Source: Adineta vaga
Taxonomy: Eukaryota; Animalia; Rotifera
Direction: 5' to 3'
Assembly (NCBI GenBank): GCA_021613535.1
Contig: CP075492.1
Span: 8,133,653-8,197,652 of the forward strand
Length of the DNA stretch: 64,000 bases
Below the pieces are notes generated by a model. It did no database searches, was not told the DNA's origin, and worked only from the letters and a program-made list of their open reading frames with translations. Of this stretch, positions 2,567 to 51,800 are shown in pieces. Each line of letters starts with the position of its first letter. The stretch's first letter is position 1. The position numbers and the translations under genes are program-made.

Positions 2567-2832
2567 CGCCGGATAAAAAACAAAGGCATTCATTTCTACG
2601 CTGTTTGATCGCCACTTATTAGATAACGGTATCTCCGATTAACTTTTTTCGTTCTTGTTTAAAGATAGAACGATGAGAATCGTTCGTAAATGAATTCAGC
2701 TTTACTTTTTAGTATCTTTCGAGTTTTATAATATCACCCAGCCGATTCTGTTATTGACTTATCTTTTTAGAATCCAAATTAAATGATCGTCTGAAAAATC
2801 ATCTGAGTAGTATACACGCTAAAATAATCAAT

Positions 2833-4107: not shown

Positions 4108-4454
4108 TTAGTTGTAATACTAAGAGGTTGCCTATGCATGGTACTAAAAAAATGTTCGAAATGGTCGTTTTTTCCTATTAGAAGTTCATCGAATCTTTCT
4201 TTATTAGTTTGACGTAAAAATTCAGATACTAGAGAGAGTAAAAAGATACGATGCAATTATAGTCGTTACAGTAGAGAGAGAGAGAGAGAGATGAATTCAG
4301 ATATCCAATCATCCGGTAGCTACACAATATAGTCAATTCTTGGTATTTAACATAAACATTCTTGATCTATTCAAAGACGATTATATAAATGTGAACTGAT
4401 TTTTTAGAGATTGATAGCATAGATACTGCTGAAACCAGTCTACGAACTCGATTC

Positions 4455-8977: not shown

Positions 8978-10116
8978 CTAACTAAAAAATATTTCTGAAT
9001 CATATCGTTCTGCTGGAATTGATGCTCTTCTAATTGTTTTATCAAAAACAGCAAATAAACCAAGAAGAGGTTGATCCTCATCTTGTTGAGTTGCTAATTG
9101 TTCTAAATGATGCTTATTTAATGGGCCATATAATTGTTTTCCATTTGAATGGAATATATAAAGATATTTTGGTTTTAAAACTGTTTTAATATAACTTAAT
9201 ATCTCTTGTTTAGTTGCTATCTCATTGGCTACTGAATCATAATAAAGTATCATATTAAGAATACGTCTTTCATGAAATAATTGTTCAGCTGATCGAAGTA
9301 TATCCATTTCTCCTTCGTCAAAATCGATTTTCAATAAAAAGATGGATGATGGCCATGAAATATCATCTAATCGAATTGATGGCACTTCGACTGGTGGTGT
9401 TGAGTTTTTTCTTATGTCAACGGCTGAATCTAATTCAAGGGTACTATTCGACGTTACATCACTAACTATGTTATGATAGAGATGAATAGATGTTGGAGGA
9501 AATGCATTAATTCGAATTGAAATATTAATAAGAGCAATAAAAGTTGGTTCGATTTCGAACATATAAACCATACAACCACAAGCTGCAGTATAAAGACCAA
9601 AATCACCTGAAATTAACAGACAACATGCCTTCTATGTATGATAATTTATAGAATTTTACCTAGATGAGCACCAATATCAACAACAATTGTCGATGAATCT
9701 TGACGACATTGATCAAATAGATGTAGAACTTCAAATATCATTACTCGTGCATCATCGATAAAAGGCTTAGAACCATTCTTTGTAGCTAATTTATAAGCTG
9801 GTGTTTGTTCATTCATAACAACAATAACTTCAAAAGGAGTTGTGGTTGTCGTTGTTGTTGTTGTAGTTATTGTCGTCGTCGTTTCAATAGTAGTAGTCGT
9901 GATCGATTCCGTTGTCGAATCAGATTGAACCGTATTTCCTACTGCAGAATTTAAGCTTTGCATAGGGATATATGATGAAATAGATTCCAAACTTGGAACC
10001 ATATCATAATAAAATATAGGAATGGCTATAGAAATCAAAGTAAATGATAAAAGTATCCAAAATTTTTCTCGTCGATAATAAACCGAATATATAATATGAG
10101 ATGGAAGAGATTGCAT
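8978..10116 (-). CDS. FkbM-family methyltransferase-like protein with N-terminal TM anchor and poly-Thr stalk (type II membrane topology); 2 exons (10116..9660, 9606..8978), ~361 aa
   Basis: Exon 1 ends ...GAHLG at a G|GTAAAAT donor. A 53-nt intron ends at ttaatttcag. Exon 2 continues DFGLYTAACGCMVYMFEIEPTF. The FkbM signature motifs are VVDIGAHLGDFG...FEIEP and LLKIDFDEGEMDILRSA (compare LKIDVEG.E..VL). The N-terminal hydrophobic segment is FWILLSFTLISIAIPIFYY. A run of about 20 Thr is encoded by ACA/ACT/ACG. Confidence 0.6.
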
Positions 10117-28800: not shown

Positions 28801-31800
28801 GCGAATGAAGGAATTAGCAATGCCAGTTCGGAACATCGACAGACAACAACAACAGACAACACCGAGCACAAATGTCGAAACTGTTCACAACGATTCGTCG
28901 CAAAGAACGATTTATTCAAACACCTGCGTGAACAATGTTATCCTGATGAAATACGGGAACAAATTGGAAAATTAACTTCACATATTTCCGACGATACGCA
29001 ACGAAACAAGATCACGAATGTCCTATGGAGATACGGAAATTTATTCGATCTTCGACAACCATCAAAGATTGACATTATTTTGAAGAATGCAATCGACACA
29101 GGTATTCATAGACCAGTACATACTCCACCATATCGCAAATCCAACAGAGACCAAGAAACATTACGTGAAGAAACACAAAAACTACTGGAAAATGATATTA
29201 TTGAACATTCAACGTCGCCATGGTCATCACCTGTAGTACTAGTTAAAAAGAAAGATGGAACAACAAGATTTTGTGTAGATTATCGTCGACTCAATCAAAT
29301 TACAACTAAAGATGCTTTTCCATTACCACGAATTGATGATATTTATGATCAATTAACCCAAGCAACATATTTTAGCAAATTTGATTTCAAAGCAGGTTAT
29401 TTTCAAGTACCATTAGACAAAGCCGATCGACCAAAAACAGCATTTTCTACAAGAGATGGTCATTTCCAATTCAAAGTATTACCACAAGGACTTACAAATG
29501 GACCACCAACTTTTCAACGAATTGTCAATCAAATACTCGGTCCGAATCGATGGAAGCACATGTTGGCATACATCGATGATATTATAATATATTCACGAAC
29601 ATTTCTTGAACATGTACAACATATTGAAGAAGTATGTTCATTATTGCATGACGCAAATTTCAAGTTAAATATAGTAAAATGTGAAATCGCACGTACAGAA
29701 ATATTATTTCTCGGACACATCATCAAGCAAGGTACAATTCAACCAGATCCAGAAAACATCCGTGATTTAGCAGATGTTCGTGAACCAACATCAGCAGAAG
29801 AGGCATTCCGATTCGTCAAAGCTGCGGAATATTATCGCAAATTCATTCCAAAATTCTCGATCATTGCAGCACCACTACACAAATATTCACCAACAACATT
29901 ACAACAGCAGAAGAATAACAAGAAAACAAAATTCGAAATAACAGAAGAAGCACGAACAGCATTTCATCAACTGAAGCACATCTTAACAACGGATCTTATC
30001 CTCAATTTACCTGATGATGATATGCAATTTAAATTACAAACGGATGCAAGTGTCGATGGAATTGGTGCTGTTCTATTACAAATTACACCAAACGGTGATC
30101 GACCACTAGCATACATGTCGAAGAAATTAACCAAAACACAAATTAACTGGCCTACCATCGAACAAGAATGTTATGCAATTGTTCAAGCTGTGGAGAAATG
30201 GGACAAATATCTTCGTGGACAGGAATTTATTTTAGAAACAGATCATGAACCATTAGTCCACTTCAACAACAAAGAACAACTGAACAAAAGGTGTGAACGT
30301 TGGCGATTGCGACTAGCTGAATATCGATTCAAGGTGAAGCATATACAAGGTAAGAAGAATAATATGGCAGATTATTTATCTAGATCACCGGTGGAAATAG
30401 CTCATGAAGATAACGACGACCGACTTCAATATGAAACGAAATCAACACAAACAGAAACATCATCACCAACGTCCAACCATGAACATCCACCTGTACGAAT
30501 AATCACAGCTATTACACGAGCTCAAGCAAAATTACAACAGCAGAATGAGCTCATCCCGCAAGGGAAAGAAGCGAAAACTCAATCGGAGGATGATCCGAAT
30601 CGGATCATACCCTTCGATTTGGACGATCTCAGGGAAGCACAGGAACGAGATGATGTCGTGAAACAAATTAAAACCAACATCAACAAACAAAAGCAATATA
30701 CAATAGAAGACGGATTATTATTACGAAGACAAAAATCATCAATTTTAGCAGTACCATTTGTTTCACAGGGAAGAATGCGTGCTGATATTTTGAAAATTTA
30801 TCATGATACACCTGGTAATGGTGCACATTTTGGTCGTGACAAAACAGTACGAAAAATACAAGAACGATATTACTGGCCAACAATGACAGCAGATATTGAA
30901 AATCATGTCAAATCCTGTTTACCATGTGCACAGAACAATCATCGTCGTCAAAAACCACCAGGAAAATTACAACCAATACCACCACCTGATGGAATATGGA
31001 AAGTACTTAGTATGGATTTCCATGGACCAATAAATCCAACAACACGACGAGGTAATCGATACATTATATCATTAACCGATGTCTTATCAAAATTCGTCAT
31101 AACAAAAGCAGTTCGCGATTGTTCAGCAAAAACAACAGTTGATTTCCTTACCAACGATGTTATCTTGAAATATGGAACACCAACATGCATTTTAACTGAT
31201 AATGGTACTCACTTCACAGCAGAAACAACGAACAATTTACTTATGAAACTTGGTGTCACTCATTTATATACAACAGCTTATCATCCACAAACAAATGGAC
31301 AAATTGAACGTTTTAATGCAACAATGGATGGTAAAATAGCATCATTATGCAACGAACAACGTACAGATTGGGATGAAATGTTACAATTCGTTACATTTAA
31401 TTACAACACATCCATACATGCAACAACAAAACATACACCATTTGAAATGATGCACGGTCGACAAGCTAGTCTTCCATTCGATCAACAACGGACACTTATT
31501 TCACTTACAAACGACACTGAACATGGAGAAAAACTTCGAAATTACCTGGAAAAATTAACAGATGATGCACGGAAAAATATTCATAAATCTCAGCAACAAT
31601 ATAAGACTCGATATGATCAACATCGACAAGAATTATCGATCAAAATTAATGATTTAGTCCTGATTAAAACCAGAAGTTTTCGAAACAAATTCGATATTAG
31701 GTACGAAGGTCCATTTCGAATTATCGAACAATTAGGAAGAAAAACATTCATTGTACAACATGTGAAGAAAACAACATTAACAAAACAAGTTACAATGGAT

Positions 31801-34800
31801 GTCATCGTTCCATTAGTAGAACGATGGAATTTACATGACTAAACACATCCCACTAGGGAAAGGTGTAAATCGACTGTGAACATAATTGACTTCATTAAAA
31901 TGTATATTTATATTTATATGAATAAAATACATGAATTTGATTTAGCAGATCATGTCGGGGAGATAGGTTTCCCCTTCTCACTGATAAGATGGGGCTATCA
32001 AAGATATATATATATATCACATAGTCATATATGTATAAGCGACATCTATTTTTTTCTATTCATATGAACATTTAATCGATATATCATGGCGATCACGTGC
32101 AGACGACATGATACGACGGATGATCCATATGGACGAAGCCGATTACCTTACAAGAACACGACACGGTCGATCTCACCACATCACAGAACAGGAAAGAAAA
32201 AGATGTAAACAAGATCATATAGTCATGCCACTTTCATCTATACGCGTATATGACGACGCGAGTATTTATATATATATATATACCCAGGTCGAAAAATCCG
32301 AGCCGGATCCGGTCGGAACCAAAATATTCCGGTCATTTCATGGAAGCAGGATTCCGACCCGGATATTTTCGGATTTTTCCACTCGCTTCTGACTAACTTC
32401 CAGTAAGTTCCAGTCGGAAAACGACTGGAATTCACCAGAACAGTCCGAGAAATTCCGATCGGAATACTGCTTCCACTCTCCTTTGTTTTCCGGTTGGAAC
32501 CTTTTGGAACTAGCTGAAACCGTCCGGAATATCCTCGGAAATGCGTGATTTCTGGCAGGTTCCTTTCGGATCCGGAGGCCGGAACGTCCGTTCTGGGTAT
32601 AACGGACAGGAAAGAAAGAAAAAAGGACAACAAAGGAATGAAAAATTTTAGGAAACGAAAAACAAAAGCATGGAAAATTACGAAGAAAAACAGAAGAAAG
32701 AAGAACGAAAGGATAACCTTTCACCGGAGTGACCGTCGCCAGACTATCAAGTAAATCACTTTATTTACTTTATTTATTTTCTAATAGTAGAATGCACTCA
32801 ACAAAATCACCAAAATCAAGCTGGATGAGAAACCAACGACAGATGGAGAAGAATGAAGAACTTCGAGGATTACATCCCGAATATCGTCCATCAGCAAATC
32901 TCGAAATTGTCCACGTACATCATCGATCGACCATACAATCAATCGAAGAATTAATAAAAAAGGCAATACAAACAAGAAGATTCGTCGTCGATACAGAATC
33001 TCAATGGAAAATATTACGAAAAGGTGAACCTCGAACAAATGGAGCTTTGATCCAAATCCAGATGATACATTCACCAAGCAAGTCAACAGTGGTCCTCATC
33101 GAAACATGTTATCTACCAGGCACAACATCAACGTTATACAAGAAAATCAAACAATTGTGTGACACCATCTTCGACAACAACAATGAAATTATCACATGGG
33201 GACCAATCGAGCAAAAATTTGAGCCTTTTCATCATTTAAATTTCATTCATTTAGGAGCAATTCGTGAATGTGACTTGCAATTCTACATTAGCAATCCAAG
33301 TCAAATTTATGATTCGCATCCAGAAATGGAAAGGCGAGAGACAACCGGAAATGTGTCGATGGAAATCAACACACCTGGTGATGAACTTATCGTCCATGTG
33401 GACGAGGATGATTTGTGGAACTTCGACGATAATCTCGGTAATTTTCGAAAAAAAGAAAAATTGAATCCACCTTTAGGTTTACAAGCCGTCGTGGCCGAAA
33501 ACTTCAACAAATTTCTGGACAAATCGTACACAAAAAATGAATGGAACTGTGGATTAGATCTTCATTTAGGAACATGGCAAGAAAAACGATTTAGCAAAGG
33601 TCAATATGATAAATATCAAGAACAACAAGAACGTACAGAAATGATACGATATGCCGTCAACGATTGTGCATCGGTTGCTGAACTTTACTTTGAAAAATAT
33701 CCGGAAACAACGAACGATTACTTGACACCACCAGAAACGCCAACAACAACAATCATTCAAATTTCACACCTGAACACAATCTCCTCTTCGAATGAACAAG
33801 AATTAAGTCAACGATCAAAATCAAATCATGGTGAGACATTGACTAAAAAAGAAATATATTTAGATCGACCAGATTTGTTATTCAAAATGAACGAAGATGA
33901 ACTTGTACAATTTCAACAACCAGTATTCGACAAAGTGGAAGAACCAGTTCAACAAGCACAACAACCAGTTCCACAACAATTTCAACGAACACCTGAAGAA
34001 GAACATCAAAAGAAGAAAGAAAGACAAAGGAAGAAGAACGAAAAATACAAGGAGAAGAAAAGAACTCGTCCAGATTTTATAAATCGTCTAACAAGACCCA
34101 TCTACTACAAATACAACTACCAAAAAATTCGAGCTCAACTGATAGACGATGAAATACATCACACACATCAAATCAACATTAATGAAGACAAAGATGCAGT
34201 GACGATCAACTTCAAGTCCCGAGAGTTACTTGAAGCAGCAAGAACAAAAATGCGGGTGAATTATTTTTCAGAAAATCAATACTACAGGAGATGGGGAAGA
34301 AGAAAAGAAGAAAAAAAGAAGAATTAGTGGTGGTGGTGATTCACATGTGTGAGGACACACGATCTCATACTGGTGGGGAAGAATGTTAACGTAGCAGCTC
34401 TCGGAATTCTATCTTTTTCTCTCTCTCTCTCTATCTACCTTGTTATCTTTGTTTTCTATTCTTCTATACATATATATATATATGTGTGTTCTTGTATGAA
34501 GAGGTTAGTTAGGTTTTTATTTTATATAAATAAACATCGTCAGCTCGAATACGAGCTAACACATATGATTTGTGAGATCTATGCATTGATCAACTATTCA
34601 AAAGTATGATTGTCTCTCATACTCTTCTCAACTTGTTTTTTTTCCTTGATCGATTTTCATCAATCATTCTCACTGACCTTTCCAACAACTTATTCATAAT
34701 TCACTATCGATATTTGCACCCTTAGAATTATAGTTCAAAAGATCTGTACGAAAAAGTACACTAAACAATCAGATTACCATTTGAATAAGAACTTGGCACA

Positions 34801-39200: not shown

Positions 39201-39814
39201 ACAATTCTGAATAAGTATCCCTTTGTAAGAAAACTTCTATCTTTTTTTGAATTTTTCAGAAGTACTCGTATATTTTCTGATGGTTTTATTAAAACATCAG
39301 CTATTTTATCTCGCACATATACTAAATATATTACTAGGTACAAACTACCATCATTCATCGATTTTTCCCTGCGAAAAAGTCGTCACCTGGACAAAATATT
39401 GCAGTGATTATATTTTCGTATCGACGCAACATCAGCGCGCATATTCGCATAGAAAAAAACTCTATCGAAAGTAGCCGAAGTTCATGTTAGGGAACACTCA
39501 TCATTGGATGCGATTGTTAAAAAGATCAGAAGTCCAACAGAGAGTATGTTTGATATGAGCGCAAACCTAGGTATAAGCTGAAGTGACATGATGCGAGTGG
39601 ACGAATGTGTATGTAATGTAAGTTAGATTTGCACGTAAGCATATTCGCTAGCCACTTCATCCTGTTCGTCTTCACGTATGGTTTTACTGTCAGTGTCAGC
39701 GAATCCTACAGCCTTCTTCTCACAAAGATCTGCACATTGATTTTCGCAATATTTTGTCCGGTCAACGATTTTTTATAGGTAGTTTACAATGTTTTTTTTT
39801 CAATTTTAGATCTG

Positions 39815-41977
39815 ATGACGAAAGATTTAGAAAAAAATCAGGTTGGAAAACCTGATGTTTTGAAATTCTATATTGATTCTGAGATGACTCAGTTTGAAGA
39901 AGTTGGTGGAACATGTTCCAATCGAGATAATTTCGACGAACCTTGTTGTACAGTTCGAAGTGTTGTCATAGGACTAATATTCGTCATTGCTACATCTTAT
40001 CTTCATCAATGGACTGTTTACACATTTAGTGATACATATATTGGACCGATGTTAGTTATTCTATTGATCTATCCAGTTGGCCGTCTTTGGGAATATATCG
40101 TACCCAATTCAAAACCATTTACTCAAAAAGAACATGGGTTTGCATTGATTATGACAAATGTTTCTTGGATCTTTTTTCTACAATTTAATTTCGCTACATC
40201 TGCAGCGTTACCATTATTGGAAAATGATAAACTTAATTTTGCCAATTATTTTTTTCTTGTCTTAGCATTTCAATTTCTTGGCTTTGGACTAGCAGGTATG
40301 TCTTGTCTTTTATCTAAATTAGAATTTTTTAGCAATAGATTTTTTCTAATATTCTTTATAGGTGTTTTACGTCGATTTCTAGTCTGGCCAACTGAAGTGA
40401 TATGGCCCCAAAATTTACCTTTAATTGCTATTTTACGTACTTTACATGAACGTGAAACAAGTGCTAAAGAAACAACATATGGAAATGTAAAAACTCGCAG
40501 TTGGAAGGAAGTCTTATATCAGAATAAATTACTCTTCTTTTTTCTTGTTGTTCTCGTTGGATTCATTTATGAATGGTTTCCACTATTTATTATGCCATTC
40601 TTGTCTGTTTTCTCATGGATGTGTATGTTTGACATAAATAATCATTTACTTGGTCAACTAACTGCTGTTCGTGGTCTATCATTAGCTGGTGGTGGACTTA
40701 CACTTGAATGGATGAAAATAACACAATATCTTGGTTCCCCACTTATTCTACCTGGCTGGGCTTTAATTAATATTGGATTTGGTTTTGTATTAATTATTTG
40801 GTTTATTGTACCCATTATCTATGGATCTAATGTTCGAAATATCAAATCTCGTCCTATCGCAGGAGTCATGTTTTCCGGTATAACAGCAATGAATCTTGTA
40901 ACATCATTTACTTCGTTCGCTTACTTACCAGCTATATTTGTACATACAGCCCTTTTTCATGGTTACGATCTTTGGCAACAACTTCGATCGAAATCGTTAA
41001 ATAATATGGGTAATGATATGCATAATCGACTGATGTCAGCTTATGCAAAAGTTCCAGATTGGTGGTATTTTATCTTATTTTCAATATCTTTAATTGTCAT
41101 TTGTGTTATTTGCAATCATAATGGTTGGCTAGCATGGTATCTAGTACTTCTAACTCTTGTTATTAATATGTGTCTCGTACTTCCTGTTGGACTTGTTTCA
41201 TCTATCACCGGACAATTTCTTCAAAATGCACCGGTCTATTATCTAAACGTTATCGTTACACAAGGATTATCATTGGGAAATGAATCAAAACCAACTTATA
41301 CATTTATCGTAGTTGGTTATATGCTTTTTGTTCAATCACTTGCTCTCATTCAAGATATGAAATTAGGGCATTATATGAAAATTGGTCCACGTCCAATGTT
41401 CGCTGCTCAATGTCTTGCAGGTGTGATATGTTCTATATTTAGCATTGGTATTCAATATATGAATTTCAATAAACATGGAATTAATAATGAATTTGATTCA
41501 AGTTTTTCCATCTTTGATTATACATTACTTGGTGGAAGTGCTTTTAATGATAAAGAAGGTTTCTTCTATGGTGATAATACTGCCAATCGTGGTTTACTAT
41601 GGGCTTTCTTAGTTGGAGCATTATTACCTATTCCTGGTTGGTTTTTATCACGTTTACCACGTTTTAGTTGGTTGAAACATCTACATTGGCCTCTTATTTT
41701 AATATCATTTAGTTGGATGCCTGCTCTTTTATCAGCTGGTGCACTTTTTACATGGCTTCTTATTGGTCTTGGAGTTTATTTTACAATTGGAAAATTTAGC
41801 TGGAGTCAACGTCATATATATTTAACTTCTGGTGCACTCGATCTTGCTTTAAATCTGATATTAATCATTGTAAATACAGCATTTATTAATCCAGAACGAA
41901 AATTTCCAAGTTGGAGAGGAACTGTAACTAACAATGGATGGGACAGTTGTAAACAAGCATTAATAGGAAAGTCCTGA
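39815..41977 (+). CDS. OPT-family oligopeptide transporter (720 aa), intronless
   Basis: ATG at 39815 and a single ORF. About 15 predicted TM helices. OPT signature motifs NSKPFTQKEHGFAL (NPGPF..KEH) and KLGHYMKIGPRPMF (K.GHY.KIPPR). No introns, although neighbouring metazoan-type genes are intron-rich. Confidence 0.7.
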   Translation: MTKDLEKNQVGKPDVLKFYIDSEMTQFEEVGGTCSNRDNFDEPCCTVRSVVIGLIFVIATSYLHQWTVYTFSDTYIGPMLVILLIYPVGRLWEYIVPNSKPFTQKEHGFALIMTNVSWIFFLQFNFATSAALPLLENDKLNFANYFFLVLAFQFLGFGLAGMSCLLSKLEFFSNRFFLIFFIGVLRRFLVWPTEVIWPQNLPLIAILRTLHERETSAKETTYGNVKTRSWKEVLYQNKLLFFFLVVLVGFIYEWFPLFIMPFLSVFSWMCMFDINNHLLGQLTAVRGLSLAGGGLTLEWMKITQYLGSPLILPGWALINIGFGFVLIIWFIVPIIYGSNVRNIKSRPIAGVMFSGITAMNLVTSFTSFAYLPAIFVHTALFHGYDLWQQLRSKSLNNMGNDMHNRLMSAYAKVPDWWYFILFSISLIVICVICNHNGWLAWYLVLLTLVINMCLVLPVGLVSSITGQFLQNAPVYYLNVIVTQGLSLGNESKPTYTFIVVGYMLFVQSLALIQDMKLGHYMKIGPRPMFAAQCLAGVICSIFSIGIQYMNFNKHGINNEFDSSFSIFDYTLLGGSAFNDKEGFFYGDNTANRGLLWAFLVGALLPIPGWFLSRLPRFSWLKHLHWPLILISFSWMPALLSAGALFTWLLIGLGVYFTIGKFSWSQRHIYLTSGALDLALNLILIIVNTAFINPERKFPSWRGTVTNNGWDSCKQALIGKS

Positions 41978-43457
41978 ATAGAAGGAGCATTACATACGAT
42001 TGTTGAAAAAAAATGCAACTCCTAACATTATATCACTCAGTAGATATCTAAATATTAAATGTTTTAAATTTTTTTGTTTTCTGCACAAAAACTTTTTTAT
42101 TTATTTTACAAAATAAAGTAATAAATAAAAACAAACTTCTAAGTTTCTACAAGATTTCAAGCGAGAAATATCATCGATACTCTATGACGCATAATCTTGA
42201 TGATTTACTTTAGAAATTATAAAAAGAATAAACAATTATCGAAACAAAACTGTATCTTTTCTTGTGCTTTACGTTATTTTCTGTAACACTTTCTAGTGTA
42301 TTTTAATGTATCATATGAAAACTTCTTTCATACTTCTCTATTGACTTTCAAATAGTCATTGATCTAAATAGTTTTCTACCATGAAAAACTAACCGACATA
42401 CAAAATTGATCACACCCGAGATGTTTACTTTTTTACGGAAACGGTAACATTGTATTTTCTGCTAAAATTTGTTTAACATTATCACTGAATATTTACACTA
42501 GATGTGATTATGTTCAAAAACATGGAAGAAAATGACCGATTTCCATGGTACTGTTATTCAATGAAAAACATCTCCACTAAGTTTCTTTTTTTGTAAAATC
42601 CATATAAAGGACAGACAAGCAAAAACATACCATTTCATTTTTAGTTAGAAAAAATAGAGGATCAGATTGCTTTGAATAAAGACATACTTCAGACGAGTTA
42701 TTGAATTTCTTAAACATCGAGCAGGTATCGTTATGAATATGAGTTAGAGATAATTTTTTTGTCTATTGCTCAGATTTTTCAAAAAACAATTTTTATCTTT
42801 ATTTTATATATTTCCAGAGAGAACAATCCTTCAAGAAACCTTTGGTCAATAATAAATATTTACATCTATGACATACGATAGCTAAATTTTGAAATTTTTC
42901 TAATATTACAAGTCATATAATATTTATTAATATTTATATATTGTCAAAACAGACTGAGATTTCTTCTATTAACGTGAAGAATAACGTCATAGGTTGTCTT
43001 TTCCTTCGATTAATACTATGCTTTTAAGAGTTTTTGTGACATACTATAACTTTTTAATAGATAAATCATAAACGTCAGCATTCACCCATTTCAATAGTAT
43101 TTACTTTCCACCTATGATTTCTGTATGAGATTTGACATTATTTCGAGGAAAACTTTGTGTATTAACGTTCTCAATTCTAATATTTGCACACATTCTGTAT
43201 GCATAGAAAGAAAATAATTCTCTTTTTAATCTTCTATTTTCATAAATAGTCACTTTCACAGAATCTCTGAACTTATATTCTCATAAAAATTCATATTTAT
43301 GAACAGTTAAAAGGTCGTGTATTTAACACAAATGACGTATAGAAGATCATATTTCAAAATCTTCAAGATTACAAAAAGTTTTTAAAAATTTTGTTTTTAG
43401 AATACTAAGTGCATTTGGTGCTAGAAAAATCTTGGAAATCAACCGATAACAATCAGC

Positions 43458-44006
43458 ATGGCTCATCAGAAACAAATTACAACACAACAACCAACAAATC
43501 ACGGAAGTTCAAGCAATCCGTTTCTTGTACCAACCGTACAATGGTCAGCTGGATTATATGACTGCTGTAATGACATGAGTGAATGTATGTATTCCTTTTA
43601 TATCAGATGAAATAGTAGAATAAAGAAAGTAACAACTTCTAAGACATAAATGAACATTAGAGTGAGTGACAGATCAACTTTTAAAATGATTCCTATGTCG
43701 TTAGGTTGCTATGCATACTTATGTCCATGCTGTTTTATGCATTCTTTGGGTAAAAGTATCAATGAAGAATCATTATGTGGCTGTTGTATTCCAAATCAAG
43801 CGGGAGTTTATCGTATGAAAATCCGAACGGCTCTTCATATTGAAGTATGTTTCTATTCTTTACAACAATAGAAAGATAAACAAAAAAACATTTGAATTAA
43901 TTTACATTAGGGTACGGCAATGAACGACTGCTTTACTGTTGCTTTCTGTGGAGTCTGTGCTGCTGTTCAAATGAAACTTGAATTAAAAAATCGTGGTCTG
44001 GCCTGA
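43458..44006 (+). CDS. PLAC8 (cornifelin/FW2.2-like) Cys-rich domain protein, 3 exons (43458..43588, 43673..43844, 43911..44006), ~132 aa
   Basis: QWSAGLYDCCNDMSEC...YLCPCCFMHSLGK...ESLCGCCIPNQAGVYRMKIRTALHIE...MNDCFTVAFCGVCAAVQMKLELKNRG is the PLAC8 CC/CxxC pattern. Donors GTATTC and GTATGT, acceptors gtgacag| and ttacattag|. Frame-consistent. Confidence 0.55.
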
Positions 44007-44327
44007 TTCTACCATCAAATTTATATAAAATCTTTGAACACTCTTTAAAAATATGACACACATTATTAATCATTCGAAATAAATATTCTATTATTGACTA
44101 AGATTGAAATCATAAAGAAACAATTGTTCAATGACGATCGTACATTGAGAGTCGATAGAATCAAAACAAAAGGACGAATACATCATATATACATTCATTC
44201 TTTTTCTCATATCCTTCATAAGAACAACAATCATTTACTCACGTGTTCCATAGCGTGTCTAATACGACCAAAAGAATATATCAAGAAAGCTATTCATGCA
44301 TATTTTCTTTGAAATTTTCGAGTTCAA

Positions 44328-45398
44328 ATGATTTTCATCATTTTCTTATGGATTTTAATAATAAAGATCATCTATGACAATGAACAATGTCATTCTATTA
44401 CAAAATCAATATCATTTCATAGGACTCGAAATCTTTCATCAAATCAATCGATGATTGATTCACGATTAAAACTTCATCATATGACTATTCTTGGTACTCA
44501 TAATAGTTATCATAAAGCAACACGATTTTATAAATATAAACATTCAAATCTTGACGTACAATTAATGTCTGGTATTCGACAAATTGAATTAGATATTCAT
44601 ATAATGGCGAAGAATTATGTTGTTTATCATTTACAATTTCTTGATGATCAAACAAATTGTTATTGTTTTAAGGATTGTTTATTAAAAATTCGACAATGGA
44701 GTGAACAAAATCAAAATCATTATCCAATTTTTTTATTTATCGAAATCAAAGAACGATTTTATGAAGATTTTCTCACAGCATTTCATGGTGGTCTTCAATG
44801 TCAACATTTTCAATCGATGAAAGAGCAAATTTTACAAATCTTTCCATACGATTTCTTAATCTTACCCGATTTCATTCGTGGACATCATCATTCAATTAAT
44901 ATTGCTTTAAAACACCAACGACAAGATGAAAGCCGTGGAAATTATGTTTATAAAAACTACGGATGGCCTCCAGTCTCATTGTCATTAGGAAAAATTTTAA
45001 TTAGTTTCATTGATGATCAATATAATTTAGTTGCTGATTTAATATCAACATGTCAACCATTATACAATTTCTTTTTCATAGTTCAAGAAAATGTTAGTCG
45101 TCCCTATGCATCAATTATTAACATACGAAATCCATTAGGAAATGAACAACTCATTCTTTCTAGTCAAAATCATGGACAAATAACTCGAACATTAATCGGT
45201 CATGGTAATAAACAAGCGTTCTATCGATATATTCAAGCACGAAGATATGGTGTTCATATAATTAGTACTGATTTTGTTCAATGTAATCATTCATGTTTAT
45301 GTGAAAGTATTCGAAATGATTTTCAAAATTCATCATCAAATTTATGTAATCAGATTGTTGCTCCATCATTTTGTTATTTAACGAATTCATTTCTTTGA
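44328..45398 (+). CDS. PI-PLC X-domain-like (PLC-like phosphodiesterase TIM-barrel) protein with an N-terminal hydrophobic leader, 356 aa, intronless
   Basis: ATG at 44328. N-terminal IFIIFLWILIIKII. MTILGTHNSYH matches the catalytic-His motif of PI-PLC X domains. A second His region is IRQIELDIHI. Confidence 0.5.
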   Translation: MIFIIFLWILIIKIIYDNEQCHSITKSISFHRTRNLSSNQSMIDSRLKLHHMTILGTHNSYHKATRFYKYKHSNLDVQLMSGIRQIELDIHIMAKNYVVYHLQFLDDQTNCYCFKDCLLKIRQWSEQNQNHYPIFLFIEIKERFYEDFLTAFHGGLQCQHFQSMKEQILQIFPYDFLILPDFIRGHHHSINIALKHQRQDESRGNYVYKNYGWPPVSLSLGKILISFIDDQYNLVADLISTCQPLYNFFFIVQENVSRPYASIINIRNPLGNEQLILSSQNHGQITRTLIGHGNKQAFYRYIQARRYGVHIISTDFVQCNHSCLCESIRNDFQNSSSNLCNQIVAPSFCYLTNSFL

Positions 45399-45485
45399 TA
45401 AATTACATTTTTCCTTGTCATTTTATCAAACAAAGATACTAAAAAGAAAACAAAACAACAACAAATAAACATCTCGATAAATTCA

Positions 45486-47039
45486 TTCTAAGAAATAAGT
45501 TGTTTTGATTTCAATTGAGATTTGGCTGTAGCAAGACGTCGTTCTAAATATTCAATATCTCTTTCAAGTTCATCTTCTTCATCTTCTTGATTCGTTGAAA
45601 GAATCTTTCGCATTGGACTATTTGGAAGTGTTGGATGATGAAGAACTAAAAATACATAGATGAAGAAATTTTTGTTTTGAAATATGAAGGAAAAAAAACC
45701 TATTTACATTCAGAACGTTCGAAATTTTGTAGAAATGTTTTTGTCATTGCTAATTCAAGTTTAAGTTCATTTTGACGATGTTTTAATTGTATTAATCGTT
45801 GTTGATGAGTTGATTTATCCGAAATCTAATTATATAAATTAGAAGATAGACATTTTTTGTATTGTTTCCTAATCGAATACTTACGATTGGACTATTCCAA
45901 GAACCGTTACTATTCGTTCGTCGATCTTCTAAAACAAACAAATAAAGGTTAAGTATTTCCATTTGAATTCATTTATATTTACCTTTCCGTATGGATTTAT
46001 TACGTGTTTTAACTGAATTATTTGCATTTGTAATATTTGTTGGCATTGACGCGAGCATTTCTTCGAGTATTGTATTACCCATTGATTCATAACCACTTGA
46101 ACTGGCACGACCAGATGCTGATGAAGCTGTACTACTTGTTGTTAATGGCATTAGATCATCATGAGAATCTAATGTTACTGTTAATGGTGATATTAAAGGT
46201 GATGATGGTGGTGATTGAATAACAATCGTTGGTTGAGGTTGTTGGGATGAACGTAAACCGAATAAACGTTGCAAAATTGATGGACGAGATGTTGTTTCAG
46301 CTAGACTGGTTGTACGTAAAGGTATTTGAGGTTTTTTTGTTGATGTACGTGAACGTCGTGTTCTTGGAATAATAAAAGGTGAATTGGGTACTGATGGATG
46401 AGAATTATCCATGGAAAGAATTTTATCAAAACGTGTAGGAGAAACAATTCGTGATAGTCGTTTCGTTTTCTCATCGGTAGACATTAAGGATGATAAATGA
46501 TCAATACGATTCAATGATTTACTCATTGTTGATTGACAATCAGGTGAATGTGGTACAATAGGTGATGGTACTAATAATGTTTCTAAAGTTTTTTCTAACA
46601 TTTCTAAATCATCATTTAATTTATTTGTACTTAGTTTTAAATTTAATTTTGATGAATCAGTTATCATTAAAGGTTTAGGTTTCGTCGGCAATTGACTTGA
46701 ACGAAATGGTAGTAATGAATGATCTTTAAATACGGGTAAGACAGGTAGATGACAATGTGAACTAACAACAGATTCAGTATCGAAATTATTGGATGAAATG
46801 TGATCTTCTTGATCATATGGAGAATATGAGGAAAGTTTAGCTTTAATATGCATCGGTTTTGAACGATGTTTCGGAGTTGATCTATTGGAAGAGATTTTTG
46901 GTGAACAAGGAACGAATTGACGTGGACCATCGATCCAAATTTCTTTTTTATGATGTGAAGCACTTAGTGGGCCATCAACCCAAATTTCTTCATGAGGACG
47001 ATTTATTACTGTTTCAATCGAAGTTGAATCACGCGACAT
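45486..47039 (-). CDS. Multi-exon gene for a Ser/Pro-rich, probably disordered protein with two EIW(V/I)DGP motifs and a C-terminal coiled coil
   Basis: ATG on the minus strand at 47039. The large first exon (to ~45969) contains EIWVDGPLSASHHKKEIWIDGPRQF. Downstream exons encode coiled-coil heptads (ISDKSTHQQRLIQLKHRQNELKLELAMTKTFLQNF; EDEEDELERDIEYLERRLATAKSQLKSKQLIS*). Exon borders are not fully traced. Confidence 0.4.
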
Positions 47040-47099
47040 CTAAAAAAGCGATCAATTATCACATTTTAGATGTATATATATATTCTTACTTTCGATTGA

Positions 47100-48858
47100 T
47101 TTCTTCGTAGTTTAAGTAATCGGTGAATTTTCGAATAGGATTTCAATTGTTTATCGTTTGTGATAGTTGCTAATATATACAAAAAATGTTCTTCAATATT
47201 AATCACGTATTCATGGAAGATTGATGTTAAAGAGAATAATGATTGTTCGTGACTATTGCGTGGACTATTATACAAAAAAAAGAAGAAGAAGAATATGCTT
47301 AGTAGACATATATGTACATGTGTTAAAAACATTAACGAAGAAGAAAGACATATGTATAATAATGTAATTAGTTGAAGATGGCATCGAAGTAAAACTTACT
47401 TAGATGAATGGAACGATTGTTTCTGTCTATTTGACGGTAAAGATAATGACAATGACATGAGAAGATTAGAAAATTCTTCGAGATTTGCTCTTTCAGCATA
47501 GTTATCATTTGTTGAAAGTATATGAAGTTGTACGCAATGCTTATTGGATGAACGATTTATAAGATGAAATGTTATTAATAGAGGATAAGATTGATGATCT
47601 ATACACAGTTGTTTCAAATAATCAGATGTTTCAATTGGACAAACAATTGAATAATCACTGGGTAATAAAATAAATTTTCCTATTCGAAACGAGAAAAGAA
47701 AACATTCGATCGTTGGATAAAAAAATCATTATTAAAAAAAAAAGAAATACCTCTTGCTGTAAGATTGTCACTTGGAAATTCTTGTATACTAACACGAAGC
47801 AAAAGACTTTTATTTTGTTCGTTAATGAAACGATGTAAAGCGATTAATGTTAATGAAATAAGAGTAGTTTGCAATTGAATAACTATAAACAAAAATTATA
47901 TCATCAGAAAAGATAACTATCTTTTCTTTTACTTACTTTCACAAGATTGACCAGAAAGGATAATTAATGTATTGATATAATTCGTTGTTATACGTGAAAT
48001 ATATTGCTCAAATATACATTCACTAATGTTCGTTGTCTGTTCATTACAAGAAAAGATCTGCTCGAATGGTTGTTGTTGCTTGTCATCTAATGAACACAAA
48101 CATCGTAGACCGAGTCTAATCTAAACAATGCGACACGTATATATATATATGTATATAGAATTATCATTATCATCATCAGACAGAGGATTCACTTGGGATA
48201 TTATTCGTCTCAAAAGTCATTGTCAATTCGATTCGGACAGAGTCTTTTTTACTGATGCATCCGTTTTCTTATGTGTCCAGTCGATAGAGACAAAATTGAA
48301 TGAACAGAGACCAATTATCATATTTGGTTACATCGGTCATCCAAAAGAAGAAAAAGAAGAGAATTGTTTCTATAATCGATGTCTGTATCTGATTATGGAC
48401 AAGAGGAAAGCATATACGTATAACATCGATTTTTTTCCTTCTTCCCTCTTCTCTCTGTTTAGTTTTTTTTTATGATTTCATAATTGCTCTGTATAACATT
48501 CATTCAAGGATCATATTCAATTGATATCTATCTATATAACGACGTAACAAGAGTCACGGGCTATTTGTCACACATAGATGTGCATTAGGTCGAAGGACTT
48601 CTAACATATATATGTGTATGATAATAGTAGATCAACATAGGTTTTTTTTCTTACTCGTGATGATGAAGCGGATTTTTTTTGTGTCAATTGGAGATGATGG
48701 TTATTATCATAAATAGTCAAACTAGATGACTGAAGATGATTGACGGATGATGAAGAAGGAGAAGAAATCGATGGCGGTTGAAGCGGCATTGGTTGCGTAA
48801 GTCCGATCGTATACTTATGGTCATCGTTGATCATCATTCGTTGTAGCGATGAGGGCAT
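47100..48858 (-). CDS. Uncharacterised multi-exon gene (first exon 48650..48858, then a ~520-nt intron, then exons at ~48118..47934, 47892..47750, 47680..47399, 47332..~47100)
   Basis: ATG at 48858 (MPSSLQRMMINDD...). Donors CGA|gtaagaaaaaaaacc, A|gtaagtaaaag, G|gtatttc, AA|gtaagtttt. Acceptors ttgtttag, ttgtttatag, tcgaatag. No recognisable domain. The plus-strand ORF 48128..48475 lies inside its long intron and is probably spurious. Confidence 0.35.
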
Positions 48859-51800
48859 ACTGAAAAAAAAAGGAATCGTTGAGAAAGAGAAAAGACATAG
48901 CTCTAATTTCTTCTTGATTAAACAAAGAGATGTGTCATCATTTTCTTTTTCGATGTGTTAGAGAGAATGACGCAAGGATATGGTTATGTCGAATACATTG
49001 AAGTATTAGAAAAGCAAATACACATCACATCTGTATATATTGAACACTGATCTGCAAGGTTAGACATGATCTCTTCTGACATATTCTACAATTTCATTCG
49101 ATGATATACATATTAAAAGAGGAGAAGAAGAAGAAAAAAAAAGGAGAAAAGAGCGATGACTCGATCAATAGGATGTTGTATGTAAATATCTGATTCTCGT
49201 TCTTTTTTTTTTGATGTACAAATGACACACTTGTCCTGTAATCCGGTTCCGGTATGCGTCTACCTCGTATGCATACTAATGAAGACGATTTGTTTTTTTT
49301 TCTTGCTGAAATGTCTATTAAATTAATTATCAATTTTGTCTATGTCTTCTTTGCTAATAAAATTATCTCATCTTCGGAGACGACTATGATAAGAAAAACT
49401 AAGAACTACAAATGATTTGATTCCTTTTTTTTCTCTTCTCTATTAATTCATACCAATTAAAAAGTAAGGCATATGGTGTTATCTTCAATTGTCACTTGAC
49501 TATGTTATGTTTACTTCAATTCACGGTCAATTAGAAACAAGTATATATGTTCGAAACTCCGCCTTTTTCTTACACATATATTCCCTCAATTGTATGTTCA
49601 TCATTAACGAAAAGAATCTCTTATTATAACAATGATCTAGCGTGACCATCTGTCCTTCTCTGACAAGAAAAGAAGAAAGTTTAATTAATTTTAGCTTACA
49701 AATCAACAATATCAAGGTTGACGTTATCCAATGAAAAGGTTTACTAAACGTTTTTCTTTTTTAGAACAAAAAAAAGTCAAATGAATGAATTAGAAAAGTA
49801 AAGGAAGCATATGTCTCGCATTGATGAAGAAGAAGAAGAATTTTCTTTTTCAATCTTACCTTAAAGTCAATAAGAGAAACTGGAACGTAGTCAGTCAATG
49901 AAAATGATGTAATCAAGCAGAGTAGTTGGCTGAGCACGGCACATCCGGCTTCAAAGCATCTTTTGATTTAACGAATAGAGAAGAAAAATGGAAGAGAGAC
50001 AGAGAAAAGTATGCATACACGAGAACGAGAGAAAGAAGGTGTCACATAAAGGACCCAATGCCTAACTAATCATCAGCACACACTTCTCTTGTCTACTTAC
50101 TGATTGAATAGAGAATGAAAATGAACGAAGAAGGATAAGAATGGTCAGTAGAACAAATATGTACCGGAATTGCTTTTAGCTTCTATTCATTACAAAAGAA
50201 ACTGAATATACGGGTTTTTTTTCTTCTTCTTCTATATATTTAAGCTAAAAAAAAGAACACTGAATATATTCTTGATATGAAAAGAATGTAGAGATAGTAA
50301 TGATCTATCATCAATCAATGACCTTTTACATTCTCATAAGATATCTGACAAGAATTAATTCAATAAATTAACTCACTCCGCCCGTTTTTTTCCTCTCTTT
50401 TTGTTTTCTAATGTGAAGTTTAAGACTAGACATACTTGCTGAGAAGTGTTAATGACAATAATTATCAGAAAGAATGTTTGGATCATCAGGAAGTTATGTC
50501 GGAAAAGTTCAAAAAGAATGAAGTCTGGCAAGAAAAAACAGCTGACCTTGCTTATTCAATCTATTCCTTTCTTACTTGTGATTGTCTCGACCACTGAAAT
50601 AGATAACATAGACATATATATCATCATCGTATTGTCTAAAGATCAACACTTACGATGTCATTCGTTGATGATGTCTTCGTTTCATATTTGACGTGAGAAT
50701 GATGGGTCGAAAATAAAATGTAGTGACAGGTAACGAAGGTAAATGACGATACTAAAATAACAATTTATGTAATAAAAACGAGACAAATATTTGAGCATCC
50801 AAGGTGAATGTATAAGAAAAGAAAAATGACAAATATATATATATTCTACATGAGGACAGAGAAGAGAAAAAAATTATGATTGACAATATCAAATTGGCTT
50901 CACTCTACATGTTTTCTTTCTCATGGAAATAGACATATCAAAATGGATTGGATACGGTGACTTACATCAATTGAATAATTGAAATTTGTATTCCGGTTTT
51001 GTTTGGAACTAAAAAGATATATAATCTTTGATTGAAATATTTGTATCTTGTACATATTTATGAAATAAGAGAAAAGATCATTATTGACTGTCTTCTCGAA
51101 CGAAAAAAGAAAAAAAAAGAACGATCGTTTTTGATTTTCAAGGATATCATTTTTTTTCTCGTGGTTAAACTTACCTCATTACTGAATACAATTGTGATTG
51201 TAACTAAATTATCTTCTATGTTTGTCGTTTTTATCGATTTCTATCCTCCAGATGTTATATGAGACAATACCTTGTCTTATCTTTGTTCTCCTATTGTCAA
51301 TTGTTTTATATGAAGAAATCTTCCGTGCACTTGAATAATATAAAACTTCTGTTCAATTCAACTGACTAATATTACGTATTCACTCACACATAGGTATAAG
51401 AGAACGAACAGATTTAACATGTCATATATATATAGACATCGAACGGTACAAGATGTTGCCTTCAATGTAGAAAAAATGAACATATCACGAACGAAAGATT
51501 CTTTCTTAATTGTTCTGATCATGTACTTTAAGATGACATACAAGCATTCTTTTTTTGTAGGTGTTGTCACTGAGCCTATCTTTCGTTGTAGGAATTATCG
51601 TTTTTGTTTCTGAATACGAAATTGAATTATAGATCACTACATATATATATATGTATTACACTCTGTTGCACAATTGAACTTCTTTTATTCATATGTCTAT
51701 TGAGTATTTTCCAGCTGTTGCCTGTCTTCTATTTCAAATCAAATTGAACATTGTTATATCAAACATCTATTAGATTTTTCTTTGTTGATCTGTTAATGCT

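What the first reader, a model, noticed from the sequence alone, without database searches (positions are those of the whole stretch)
39815..41977. Intronless OPT-family oligopeptide transporter in an animal-type gene neighbourhood: horizontal gene transfer candidate
The OPT family (NPG-PF..KEH and K.GHY.KIPPR motifs, both present here) is characteristic of fungi, plants and prokaryotes and is generally absent from metazoans. Here a full-length 720-aa OPT with ~15 TM helices is encoded as one uninterrupted exon. Flanking metazoan-type genes have many 50-70-nt introns. Its codon usage looks adapted to the host (AT-rich), which points to an established rather than contaminant sequence.
Basis: partly seen in the sequence, partly recalled or inferred. 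Interest (0 to 1): 0.7.

Follow-up and report, generated by a model that had tools for sequence, protein, structure and literature searches.

The report
Foreign-derived peptide transporter gene in rotifer
This is a fungal-type OPT oligopeptide transporter gene of the bdelloid rotifer Adineta vaga, acquired by ancient horizontal transfer and since domesticated (it has one hidden 66-nt intron); this is an expected and already catalogued kind of gene in bdelloid rotifers.

Summary
The 720-codon ORF at 39815-41977 (+) is real and is an OPT-family transporter (Pfam PF03169, E=1.5e-90). It is not intronless. Window 40296-40361 is a canonical 66-nt GT...AG intron that is in frame and stop-free, so the real protein has 698 aa (A. 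vaga I4U23_013324). The same intron site occurs in Adineta, Rotaria and Didymodactylos homologues.

The window is Adineta vaga, on a 20 Mb contig. The gene is collinear with its A. ricciae orthologue, has host-like codon usage (GC3 0.20) and is under purifying selection (dN/dS about 0.09-0.16). It is therefore neither a contaminant nor a pseudogene.

Among named hits, the only animal homologues are bdelloid. All bdelloid OPTs (at least 4 copies in A. vaga) form one clan with 100% NJ bootstrap, on a long stem inside the fungal/plant peptide-transporter radiation. Mortierellomycota are nearest by profile score, but the sister group is unresolved.

HGT is well supported. "Intronless" is wrong, and "animal-type neighbourhood" is only partly right: a gene 2.3 kb downstream is a bacterial-type PI-PLC. 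Bdelloid OPTs already appear as foreign in published HGT tables (Eyres 2015; a 2025 A. vaga annotation). Verdict: ordinary for a bdelloid genome and already known.

The parts
39815..40295 (+). OPT gene exon 1 (start codon to codon 161, first base); encodes residues 1-160 including the FEEV and NSKPFTQKEH motifs
   Evidence: ORF list. Exact exon mapping of the annotated A. vaga protein P0001 onto the window. Alignment A1.
40296..40361 (+). Spliceosomal intron: 66 nt, GTATGT...TTATAG, phase 1, in frame and stop-free, 19.7% GC
   Evidence: The 22 residues are absent from P0001 and all orthologues. Sequence read. Same site and phase in A. ricciae (56 nt), A. steineri (87 nt) and R. magnacalcarata (69 nt), and in D. 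carnosus copy 1. GC content and shuffle test.
40362..41977 (+). OPT gene exon 2 (to the stop codon); encodes residues 161-698 including the RRFLVWP and KLGHYMKIGPR motifs
   Evidence: The spliced CDS is 2097 nt with a single terminal stop.
39781..49408 (.). Block collinear with the Adineta ricciae locus L002 (OPT, PLAC8, PI-PLC-like gene, multi-exon minus-strand gene); collinearity stops just upstream of the OPT start codon
   Evidence: tblastx of window against L002. A. ricciae gene calls.

Best explanation
The feature is gene I4U23_013324 of the bdelloid rotifer Adineta vaga. It has two exons, encodes a 698-aa membrane protein of the OPT family (TC 2.A.67), and belongs to the eukaryotic peptide-transporting branch otherwise known from fungi and plants.

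Origin. An ancestor of living bdelloids acquired a eukaryotic (fungal-type) OPT gene by horizontal transfer. The donor was most likely an early-diverging, zygomycete-grade soil fungus or something close to one. This happened before the split of Didymodactylos from Adineta and Rotaria. The gene then gained a spliceosomal intron at a CAG|GT site, duplicated into several paralogue lineages (at least 4 copies in A. vaga), drifted to host codon usage and stayed under purifying selection.

Mechanism (inferred from family membership, not tested). It is a proton-coupled importer of tetra-/pentapeptides and/or glutathione-like peptides across a cell membrane, plausibly for nutrient uptake. This would give bdelloids a transport capability that other animals lack.

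Shown here: gene structure, family membership, host integration, restriction to bdelloids among named animal hits, monophyly of the bdelloid clan, and purifying selection. Inferred: direction and single origin of the transfer, donor identity, substrate and tissue.
For: Family: PF03169 E=1.5e-90; TIGR00728 above its cutoff.

Organism and integration:
- 100% exon identity to the A. vaga protein on a 20.35 Mb contig.
- The downstream gene I4U23_013326 lies on the same contig.
- Collinear with A. ricciae over 9.6 kb.
- Polycystin channel and PLAC8 genes lie in the same window.

Domestication:
- A conserved intron at an identical site in four bdelloid genes, plus D. carnosus.
- GC3 of 0.196, like the neighbouring ORFs.
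- dN/dS of 0.087-0.16 against the Adineta orthologues.

Taxonomic distribution:
- Named hits in two word-index searches, and 20 named top representatives of an exhaustive HMMER search of 1.84 billion proteins, are bdelloids, then fungi, then plants. No other animal appears.
- Eyres et al. 2015 Tab 9 lists a Rotaria OPT transcript with metazoan bit score 1 and HGT index 77.2.
- A 2025 A. vaga annotation flags an OPT paralogue as 'HGT'.
- Gomolplitinant & Saier 2011 found no OPT in animals.

Phylogeny:
- The bdelloid plus metagenome clan has 100% bootstrap support under five distance corrections.
- All 24 clan members score best against a Mortierellomycota HMM.
- The 27 best named non-bdelloid hits are nearly all Mortierellomycota.
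Against: - The donor is not resolved. The NJ sister group is unstable: chytrids, Kickxellomycotina, Dikarya or Mortierellomycota, each below 65%. The stem is longer than the fungus-plant distance.
- The Mortierellomycota HMM is also a rather central profile for other groups, and its margin is small for the deepest bdelloid copies (586 vs 578 bits).
- A published BLAST for another A. vaga paralogue ranks the amoebozoan Planoprotostelium first. I could not include any amoebozoan sequence.
- Two Mortierellomycota genes have their single intron at a different site, so there is no shared-intron evidence for that donor.
- Absence from other animals rests on named top hits and the literature, not on an exhaustive taxon-labelled scan.
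- No expression, splicing-read or transport data for this gene were examined.
- It falls below the TIGR00727 equivalog cutoff (246 vs 438.7), and both signature motifs are altered, so its substrate may differ from fungal Opt1/Isp4.
Confidence: 0.85

Rival explanations
1. Same horizontal transfer, but the donor was not a fungus. It was an amoebozoan or another unsampled protist carrying a fungal-like OPT, possibly itself a secondary recipient.
For: - The published annotation of A. vaga paralogue FUN_000199 lists Planoprotostelium fungivorum (Amoebozoa) as its two best hits, ahead of the fungus Bifiguratus.
- The bdelloid stem is very long, and no sampled fungal clade is a supported sister.
- Saier's survey found a Dictyostelium OPT clustering with the fungal ones.
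Against: - In my searches the best named non-bdelloid hits are consistently Mortierellomycota and other zygomycete-grade fungi.
- All 24 clan members score best against the Mortierellomycota HMM.
- No amoebozoan sequence was recovered among the named hits, although the word-index search can miss them.
Confidence: 0.25
2. Vertical inheritance. OPT was present in the opisthokont ancestor and was retained only in bdelloid rotifers among animals, with losses everywhere else.
For: - Fungi (also opisthokonts) and amoebozoans have the family.
- The bdelloid clan is monophyletic, very divergent and not nested with support in any one fungal clade.
- The family is old within bdelloids: 35% identity between deep copies.
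Against: - It requires many independent losses across Metazoa and their unicellular relatives. No non-bdelloid animal appears among named hits, and the literature reports none.
- Bdelloids are known to carry roughly 10% non-metazoan genes (quoted).
- A gene 2.3 kb away is independently foreign-looking, with bacterial affinity.
Confidence: 0.04
3. Contaminant or chimeric assembly: a fungal or microbial sequence mis-joined to rotifer DNA.
For: Only the prior consideration that OPT is a non-animal family, and that synteny with A. ricciae stops just upstream of the gene.
Against: - It sits in the middle of a 64-kb window of a 20 Mb contig.
- It is collinear with an independently assembled A. ricciae contig through three downstream genes.
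- Orthologues and paralogues occur in at least 8 bdelloid assemblies.
- It has 30% GC and rotifer-type short introns at a conserved site.
- It is only about 30% identical to any fungal protein.
Confidence: 0.01
4. A decaying relic of a transfer (pseudogene) whose long ORF survives by chance.
For: - Both signature motifs are altered.
- It falls below the equivalog cutoff of TIGR00727.
- No expression data for this copy were examined.
Against: - The 2097-nt spliced CDS is intact.
- dN/dS is 0.087-0.16 against orthologues at near-saturated dS.
- About 60 columns are invariant across bdelloid copies that are only 33-68% identical, including KE(H), RRFLVWP and K.GHY.K...R.
- The motif variants are shared by the whole clan, so they are ancestral rather than decay.
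Confidence: 0.03

Closest known systems
Fungal peptide-transporting OPTs (S. pombe Isp4, S. cerevisiae Opt1/Hgt1 and Opt2, C. albicans Opt1; TC 2.A.67, NCBIfam TIGR00727 ISP4_OPT)
   Same: - Same Pfam family, matched end to end (PF03169 profile positions 112-619 in the best stretch).
- Similar length (about 700 aa) and many hydrophobic segments.
- Recognisable versions of the two family motifs and of RRFLV(W/Y)P.
- By inference, proton-coupled oligopeptide or glutathione import (established knowledge of the family, not tested here).
   Different: - Only about 27-31% identity.
- Scores 246 bits against an equivalog cutoff of 438.7.
- NPG is replaced by NSK and KIPPR by KIGPR.
- Encoded in an animal genome, with a rotifer-type 66-nt intron.
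Mortierellomycota OPTs (e.g. Podila horticola BG000_005351, Mortierella claussenii EDD11_005115, Linnemannia elongata)
   Same: - They are the best-scoring named non-bdelloid relatives (530-584 bits against the bdelloid profile).
- Their HMM is the best-matching group profile for all 24 bdelloid-clan proteins.
- Similar length (720-730 aa) and only one intron per gene.
   Different: - Their intron lies after residue 75-76 in phase 2, not at the bdelloid LGFGLA|G phase-1 site.
- A sister relationship is not supported in NJ bootstraps.
Catalogued horizontally acquired genes of bdelloid rotifers (HGT screens of Adineta and Rotaria; Eyres et al. 2015, PMC4632278; the A. vaga annotation used in PMC12220480)
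   Same: It fits the general pattern:
- A non-metazoan gene family that is physically linked to animal genes.
- Host-like introns and codon usage.
- Shared across bdelloid genera (an 'ancient' transfer).
- OPT transcripts or genes are already listed as foreign there.
   Different: I found no paper that discusses the OPT family specifically, its monophyly, copy number or conserved intron. This exact copy was not seen in the truncated tables I could read.
Dictyostelium discoideum OPT (Ddi1), proposed by Gomolplitinant & Saier 2011 to be a fungus-to-slime-mould transfer
   Same: A microbe-eating eukaryote outside fungi and plants that carries a fungal-type OPT attributed to HGT.
   Different: - The recipient belongs to a different eukaryotic supergroup.
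- It is a single copy, against a multigene family in bdelloids.
- It was not compared directly here.
SLC15/POT (PepT1/PepT2) peptide transporters, the native animal route for peptide uptake
   Same: Analogous physiological role: proton-coupled peptide import (established knowledge).
   Different: An unrelated family (MFS fold, di- and tripeptides). The window protein gives no Pfam hit to it.

Membership tests
OPT oligopeptide transporter family (Pfam PF03169 / TC 2.A.67) | Significant full-length match to the family profile, above the curated threshold | tested here: met
   PF03169 at 305.1 bits against cutoff 25.8, E=1.5e-90. TIGR00728 OPT_sfam at 209.6 against 128.35.
OPT oligopeptide transporter family (Pfam PF03169 / TC 2.A.67) | Conserved NPG motif (NPG-PF..KEH) | tested here: not met
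   The strict pattern is absent. The variant NSKPFTQKEH lies at residues 98-107 of the spliced protein. K-E are invariant and H nearly so across the bdelloid clan.
OPT oligopeptide transporter family (Pfam PF03169 / TC 2.A.67) | Conserved KIPPR motif (K.GHY.KIPPR) | tested here: not met
   The strict pattern is absent. The variant KLGHYMKIGPR lies at residues 494-504. K494, H497, Y498, K500 and R504 are invariant in the bdelloid clan.
OPT oligopeptide transporter family (Pfam PF03169 / TC 2.A.67) | 16 (or 17) transmembrane segments | tested here: inconclusive
   The Kyte-Doolittle scan gives about 13-15 distinct hydrophobic peaks. The AlphaFold2 model is all-helical but low-confidence (mean pLDDT 48). 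No dedicated TM predictor was available.
OPT oligopeptide transporter family (Pfam PF03169 / TC 2.A.67) | Proton-coupled transport of oligopeptides, glutathione or metal chelates | not testable with these tools
   This needs heterologous expression and uptake assays.
ISP4/Opt1-type small oligopeptide transporters (NCBIfam TIGR00727, equivalog) | Score above the equivalog cutoff | tested here: not met
   246.4 bits against cutoff 438.7. It is related to this subfamily but is not an equivalog-level member.
Horizontally acquired genes of bdelloid rotifers | No homologue in non-bdelloid Metazoa; best hits are non-metazoan | tested here: met
   All named animal hits are bdelloids, followed by fungi and plants. 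Published metazoan bit score is 1 and HGT index 77.2 for a Rotaria OPT transcript. Limitation: only the top-ranked hits carry names.
Horizontally acquired genes of bdelloid rotifers | Physical linkage to host genes in an independent assembly (not contamination) | tested here: met
   A 20.35 Mb contig. Collinearity with A. ricciae. Polycystin and PLAC8 genes in the same window.
Horizontally acquired genes of bdelloid rotifers | Phylogenetic nesting within a donor clade | tested here: inconclusive
   The bdelloid clan has 100% support, but the sister group is unstable in NJ bootstraps. Profile scores favour Mortierellomycota. No ML software was available.
Horizontally acquired genes of bdelloid rotifers | Signs of domestication (spliceosomal introns, host codon usage, purifying selection) | tested here: met
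   A conserved 56-87-nt intron (longer in D. carnosus). GC3 of 0.196. dN/dS of 0.087-0.16.

The most novel reading that the evidence does not exclude
The bdelloid OPT family is a single, very ancient acquisition that predates the bdelloid crown group. It expanded to four or more lineages per genome and gives these animals a transport function that no other animal has: high-affinity import of glutathione or tetra-/pentapeptides, as in yeast Hgt1/Opt1. This function might feed their unusual antioxidant and desiccation/radiation tolerance, or their nutrition. A tandem, more fungal-like second OPT on a related contig (L001) hints at either a less-derived survivor of the original transfer or repeated acquisition.
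Probability: 0.12. Interest if true: 0.5.

Novelty: already known. Interest (0 to 1): 0.22.

Why it matters
It matters little as a discovery. Bdelloid rotifers are the textbook case of large-scale gene acquisition in animals, and OPT genes are already listed as foreign in their HGT catalogues.

It has modest value as a worked example:
- A long open reading frame in an intron-poor foreign gene can hide an in-frame, stop-free intron, so 'intronless' cannot be read from the ORF alone.
- The transfer can be dated as older than the bdelloid crown group, from a shared intron site and clan monophyly.
- For transporter biology, it is a documented exception to the statement that OPTs are absent from animals. 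It could be tested functionally in yeast opt mutants.

Tried and rejected
- Look-ups of the genomic loci of the A. vaga proteins P0001 and P0004 found nothing on record. Context was taken instead from A. ricciae, A. steineri, Rotaria and D. carnosus loci.
- A sequence search of PDB chains found no solved OPT relative.
- An AlphaFold2 model from the 16-sequence bdelloid alignment had mean pLDDT 48 and pTM 0.48. That is too poor for fold searches, so none were run. The Pfam evidence made this unnecessary.
- NJ trees with 131 and 73 taxa and five distance corrections could not place the bdelloid clan. The frequent chytrid sister is probably long-branch attraction and was not accepted.
- I tested whether the intron was inherited from the donor by mapping introns in two Mortierellomycota genes. 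The positions differ, so that idea was rejected for those fungi.
- My exact exon mapper failed on the partial D. carnosus model. tblastn was used instead.
- Literature searches for 'PF03169 + rotifer' returned nothing. 'bdelloid + HGT + oligopeptide transporter' returned only irrelevant text matches. The Nowell 2024 supplements had no OPT entry in the files held.
- Contamination, pseudogene and vertical-descent readings were considered and given low weight, as set out under the rival explanations.
Full report
**1. The observation**

The window has a single ATG-to-stop ORF of 720 codons at 39815..41977 on the + strand, exactly as reported. Its translation matches Pfam OPT (PF03169) at E=1.5e-90, 305 bits against a gathering score of 25.8. 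It also passes the NCBIfam OPT superfamily model TIGR00728 (209.6 vs 128.35). It falls short of the equivalog model for Isp4/Opt1-type transporters, TIGR00727 (246 vs 438.7).

The strict patterns NPG.PF..KEH and K.GHY.KIPPR do not match. A hydropathy scan gives about 13-15 hydrophobic peaks. This is compatible with, but does not prove, the 16-17 TMS topology described for the family (PMC3061005).

**2. The gene is not intronless**

The best database hit is Adineta vaga hypothetical protein I4U23_013324. It is identical to the ORF translation except that it lacks 22 residues, giving 698 aa instead of 720. All other bdelloid homologues lack the same 22 residues, and the Pfam match splits into two stretches there.

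The corresponding DNA, window 40296..40361, is a 66-nt GTATGT...TTATAG element in phase 1 with 19.7% GC, against 33.6% for the exons. It is a multiple of three long and has no in-frame stop. That is why a reader working from sequence alone saw one exon. About 26% of composition-matched shuffles are also stop-free, so this needs no special explanation.

Exact exon mapping shows an intron at the same codon and phase (LGFGLA|G) in several homologues:

| Gene | Intron length | Note |
|---|---|---|
| A. vaga (this window) | 66 nt | in frame, stop-free |
| A. ricciae orthologue | 56 nt | breaks the frame |
| A. steineri orthologue | 87 nt | – |
| Rotaria magnacalcarata, more distant paralogue | 69 nt | – |
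| Didymodactylos carnosus copy 1 | about 420 nt (from HSP coordinates) | tblastn breakpoints place its single intron at the same motif |

By my knowledge of bdelloid taxonomy, D. carnosus belongs to Philodinavidae, the deepest-branching sequenced bdelloid lineage. The intron therefore goes back to the ancestral bdelloid OPT gene.

Some copies read straight through the site (P0014, P0015, P0016, P0033, P0288). This implies later intron losses or, less parsimoniously, parallel gains at what is a perfect CAG|GT proto-splice site.

Two Mortierellomycota OPT genes have their single intron elsewhere, after residue 75-76 in phase 2. The bdelloid intron was therefore not inherited from a donor like them.

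**3. Organism, integration and selection**

- The exons are 100% identical to an A. vaga protein on a 20,354,754-bp contig.
- The ORF at 44328..45398 is 100% identical to I4U23_013326 on the same contig.
- From about 35 bp upstream of the OPT start codon (39781) to 49408, the window is collinear with an independently assembled A. ricciae contig. The order is OPT, PLAC8, a 356-aa PI-PLC-like gene, then a 779-aa minus-strand gene with about 1 kb of intron sequence. Collinearity stops immediately upstream of the OPT.
- The window also carries clearly animal-type genes, such as the polycystin domain and PKD channel exons at 14036..15472.
- GC3 of the spliced CDS is 0.196, within the range of neighbouring ORFs (0.14-0.30).
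- Nei-Gojobori dN/dS is 0.087 against A. ricciae and 0.16 against A. steineri. dS is about 0.8-1.1, close to saturation, so the ratios are approximate.
- About 60 alignment columns are invariant across bdelloid copies that share only 33-68% identity.

Together these points exclude contamination, chimerism and pseudogenisation for practical purposes.

**4. Relatives and phylogeny**

I ran three searches: a word-index search with the protein, an exhaustive HMMER search of 1.84 billion cluster representatives with a bdelloid profile (2686 hits at E<=1e-3), and a second word-index search with a profile that includes the deepest bdelloid branches. They give the same picture.

- **Bdelloids:** close and distant homologues occur in A. 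vaga (four copies: P0001, P0004, P0007, P0289), A. ricciae, A. steineri, several Rotaria species and D. carnosus. They also occur on unnamed metagenome contigs with animal-type neighbours (7tm_1 GPCRs, Hint, NHL on L003).
- **Next tier:** the following named hits are fungi. They are overwhelmingly Mortierellomycota (530-584 bits), with Zoopagomycota, Kickxellomycotina and chytrids.
- **Further out:** Dikarya and plants.
- **Other animals:** none appears among the named hits.

In bootstrapped neighbour-joining trees (no ML program was available), the 22-24 bdelloid and metagenome sequences form one clan at 100% support under p, Poisson, Kimura and two gamma distances. None of 75 unnamed representatives falls inside it.

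The clan sits on a long stem. Its mean Kimura distance to any outside group is 1.5-1.7, against about 1.0-1.2 between fungi and plants. Its sister group changes among replicates: chytrids (most likely long-branch attraction), Kickxellomycotina, Dikarya or Mortierellomycota.

As a test less sensitive to tree artefacts, I scored all 24 clan members against group-specific HMMs. All 24 score best against Mortierellomycota.

| Group HMM | Mean score of the 24 clan members (bits) |
|---|---|
| Mortierellomycota | 424 |
| Basidiomycota | 385 |
| Kickxello/Zoopago | 376 |
| Ascomycota | 367 |
| Plants | 330 |
| Chytrids | 321 |

Two caveats apply. The margin is small for the deepest copies (586 vs 578 bits), and the Mortierellomycota profile also scores relatively high for sequences of the other groups.

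A published annotation of another A. vaga OPT paralogue lists the amoebozoan Planoprotostelium as the best BLAST hit, and I could not retrieve such sequences. My conclusion is that this is a eukaryotic, fungal-type OPT. It is probably from a zygomycete-grade fungus, and plants are unlikely. The donor is not established.

**5. What is already known**

- Gomolplitinant & Saier (2011, PMC3061005) state that eukaryotic OPTs occur only in fungi, plants and one slime mould. They call the absence from animals surprising.
- Eyres et al. [quoted passage not shown] Its best bit scores are metazoa 1 (none), fungi 61.2 and plants 78.2, giving an HGT index of 77.2.
- The annotation table supplied with a 2025 A. 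vaga transcriptome paper (PMC12220480) flags the OPT gene FUN_000199 as 'HGT' and gives read counts for it.
- A 2026 preprint summarises the field's view that about 10% of bdelloid genes are of non-metazoan origin.

I found no paper that discusses the OPT family in bdelloids beyond such tables. The finding is therefore a correct re-discovery of a catalogued class of gene. The conserved intron, the clan monophyly and the presence in D. carnosus are details I did not see described.

**6. Mechanism**

- **Shown:** a two-exon, conserved, selected gene of the OPT family in the A. vaga genome.
- **Inferred from established knowledge of the peptide-transporting OPT branch** (fungal Opt1/Hgt1, Isp4; plant OPTs): a proton-coupled importer of tetra-/pentapeptides and/or glutathione.
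- **Speculative:** the site of action (e.g. gut epithelium) and any link to bdelloid stress tolerance.

The altered NPG and KIPPR motifs are shared by the whole clan, and the protein is below the equivalog cutoff. Its specificity may therefore differ from the fungal models.

**7. Neighbourhood**

- The PI-PLC-like gene 2.3 kb downstream (PF16670) has homologues only in bdelloids, and then in soil bacteria (Acidobacteriota, Janthinobacterium) at 23-27% identity. It is a second, independent HGT candidate and is syntenic in A. ricciae.
- An FkbM-type methyltransferase domain lies at 8978..9571.
- An 8.1-kb LTR retrotransposon with 99% identical LTR cores spans 26427..34564.

The OPT thus lies in a mosaic region, as is commonly described for bdelloid foreign genes (my knowledge of the literature; not tested genome-wide here).

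**8. Verdict**

- Observation: partly confirmed. The ORF and the family assignment are right. 'Intronless' and the exact motifs are not.
- Interpretation: partly supported. HGT and establishment in the host hold. The donor clade is unresolved, the gene is not intronless and the neighbourhood is mixed.
- Novelty: already known.
- Interest: low, about 0.2.

Noticed in passing
window 44328-45398 (+): An intronless 356-aa ORF (NCBI model I4U23_013326) with the Pfam PI-PLC-C1/PI-PLC-X domains. Its homologues are bdelloids only, then soil bacteria (Acidobacteriota such as Edaphobacter, Terracidiphilus and Acidisarcina; also Janthinobacterium) at 23-27% identity. No animal hit appears. It is a second, bacterial-type HGT candidate 2.3 kb from the OPT, and it is syntenic in A. 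ricciae.
   Followed up: partly
window 26427-34564: An LTR retrotransposon of about 8.1 kb. Direct repeats of at least 181 nt lie at 26427-26607 and 34384-34564 (99% identical, suggesting a recent insertion). They flank a gag-like ORF (26960-27973), a 1298-aa pol ORF (27946-31842) and a third 532-aa ORF (32729-34327) with no Pfam match.
   Followed up: partly
L001 3640-6093 (ENA ERZ25067493 contig, organism unnamed): A second, multi-intron OPT gene lies directly downstream of a bdelloid-clan OPT (P0033). It scores higher against Mortierellomycota and Kickxello/Zoopago HMMs (416 and 409 bits) than against the bdelloid-clan HMM (270 bits). It may be a deep paralogue or an independent acquisition.
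   Followed up: partly
window 8978-9571 (-) and 9646-10116 (-): The ORF at 8978-9571 has an FkbM-type methyltransferase domain (PF05050), a family I know mainly from bacteria. It may be another foreign gene. The adjacent upstream ORF has a Thr-rich low-complexity stretch.
   Followed up: no
window 1235-5693 (+): Three tandem paralogous ORFs of 412-443 aa lie here. Each has hydrophobic segments near both ends and conserved cysteines, and the one scanned has no Pfam match. This looks like a lineage-specific tandem gene family.
   Followed up: no
window 23054-25944 (-) and 35023-36018 (-): Four NHL-repeat beta-propeller ORFs of 232-331 aa lie here. NHL-repeat genes also sit next to OPT paralogues in Rotaria (L005) and on the metagenome contig L003.
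   Followed up: no
window 22085-22913 (both strands): A Ser/Thr-rich low-complexity repeat region is open in several frames on both strands. The 22-24 kb region it lies in has the highest GC in the window (0.41).
   Followed up: no
window 36100-39800: A 3.7-kb stretch upstream of the OPT has no ORF longer than 99 codons. Collinearity with A. ricciae ends here; in A. ricciae the upstream neighbour is an RRM/SPOC gene instead.
   Followed up: no
window 40296-40361: Because the A. vaga intron is a multiple of 3 long and stop-free, retaining it would add 22 residues without a premature stop. Such transcripts could therefore escape nonsense-mediated decay. No transcript data were examined.
   Followed up: no
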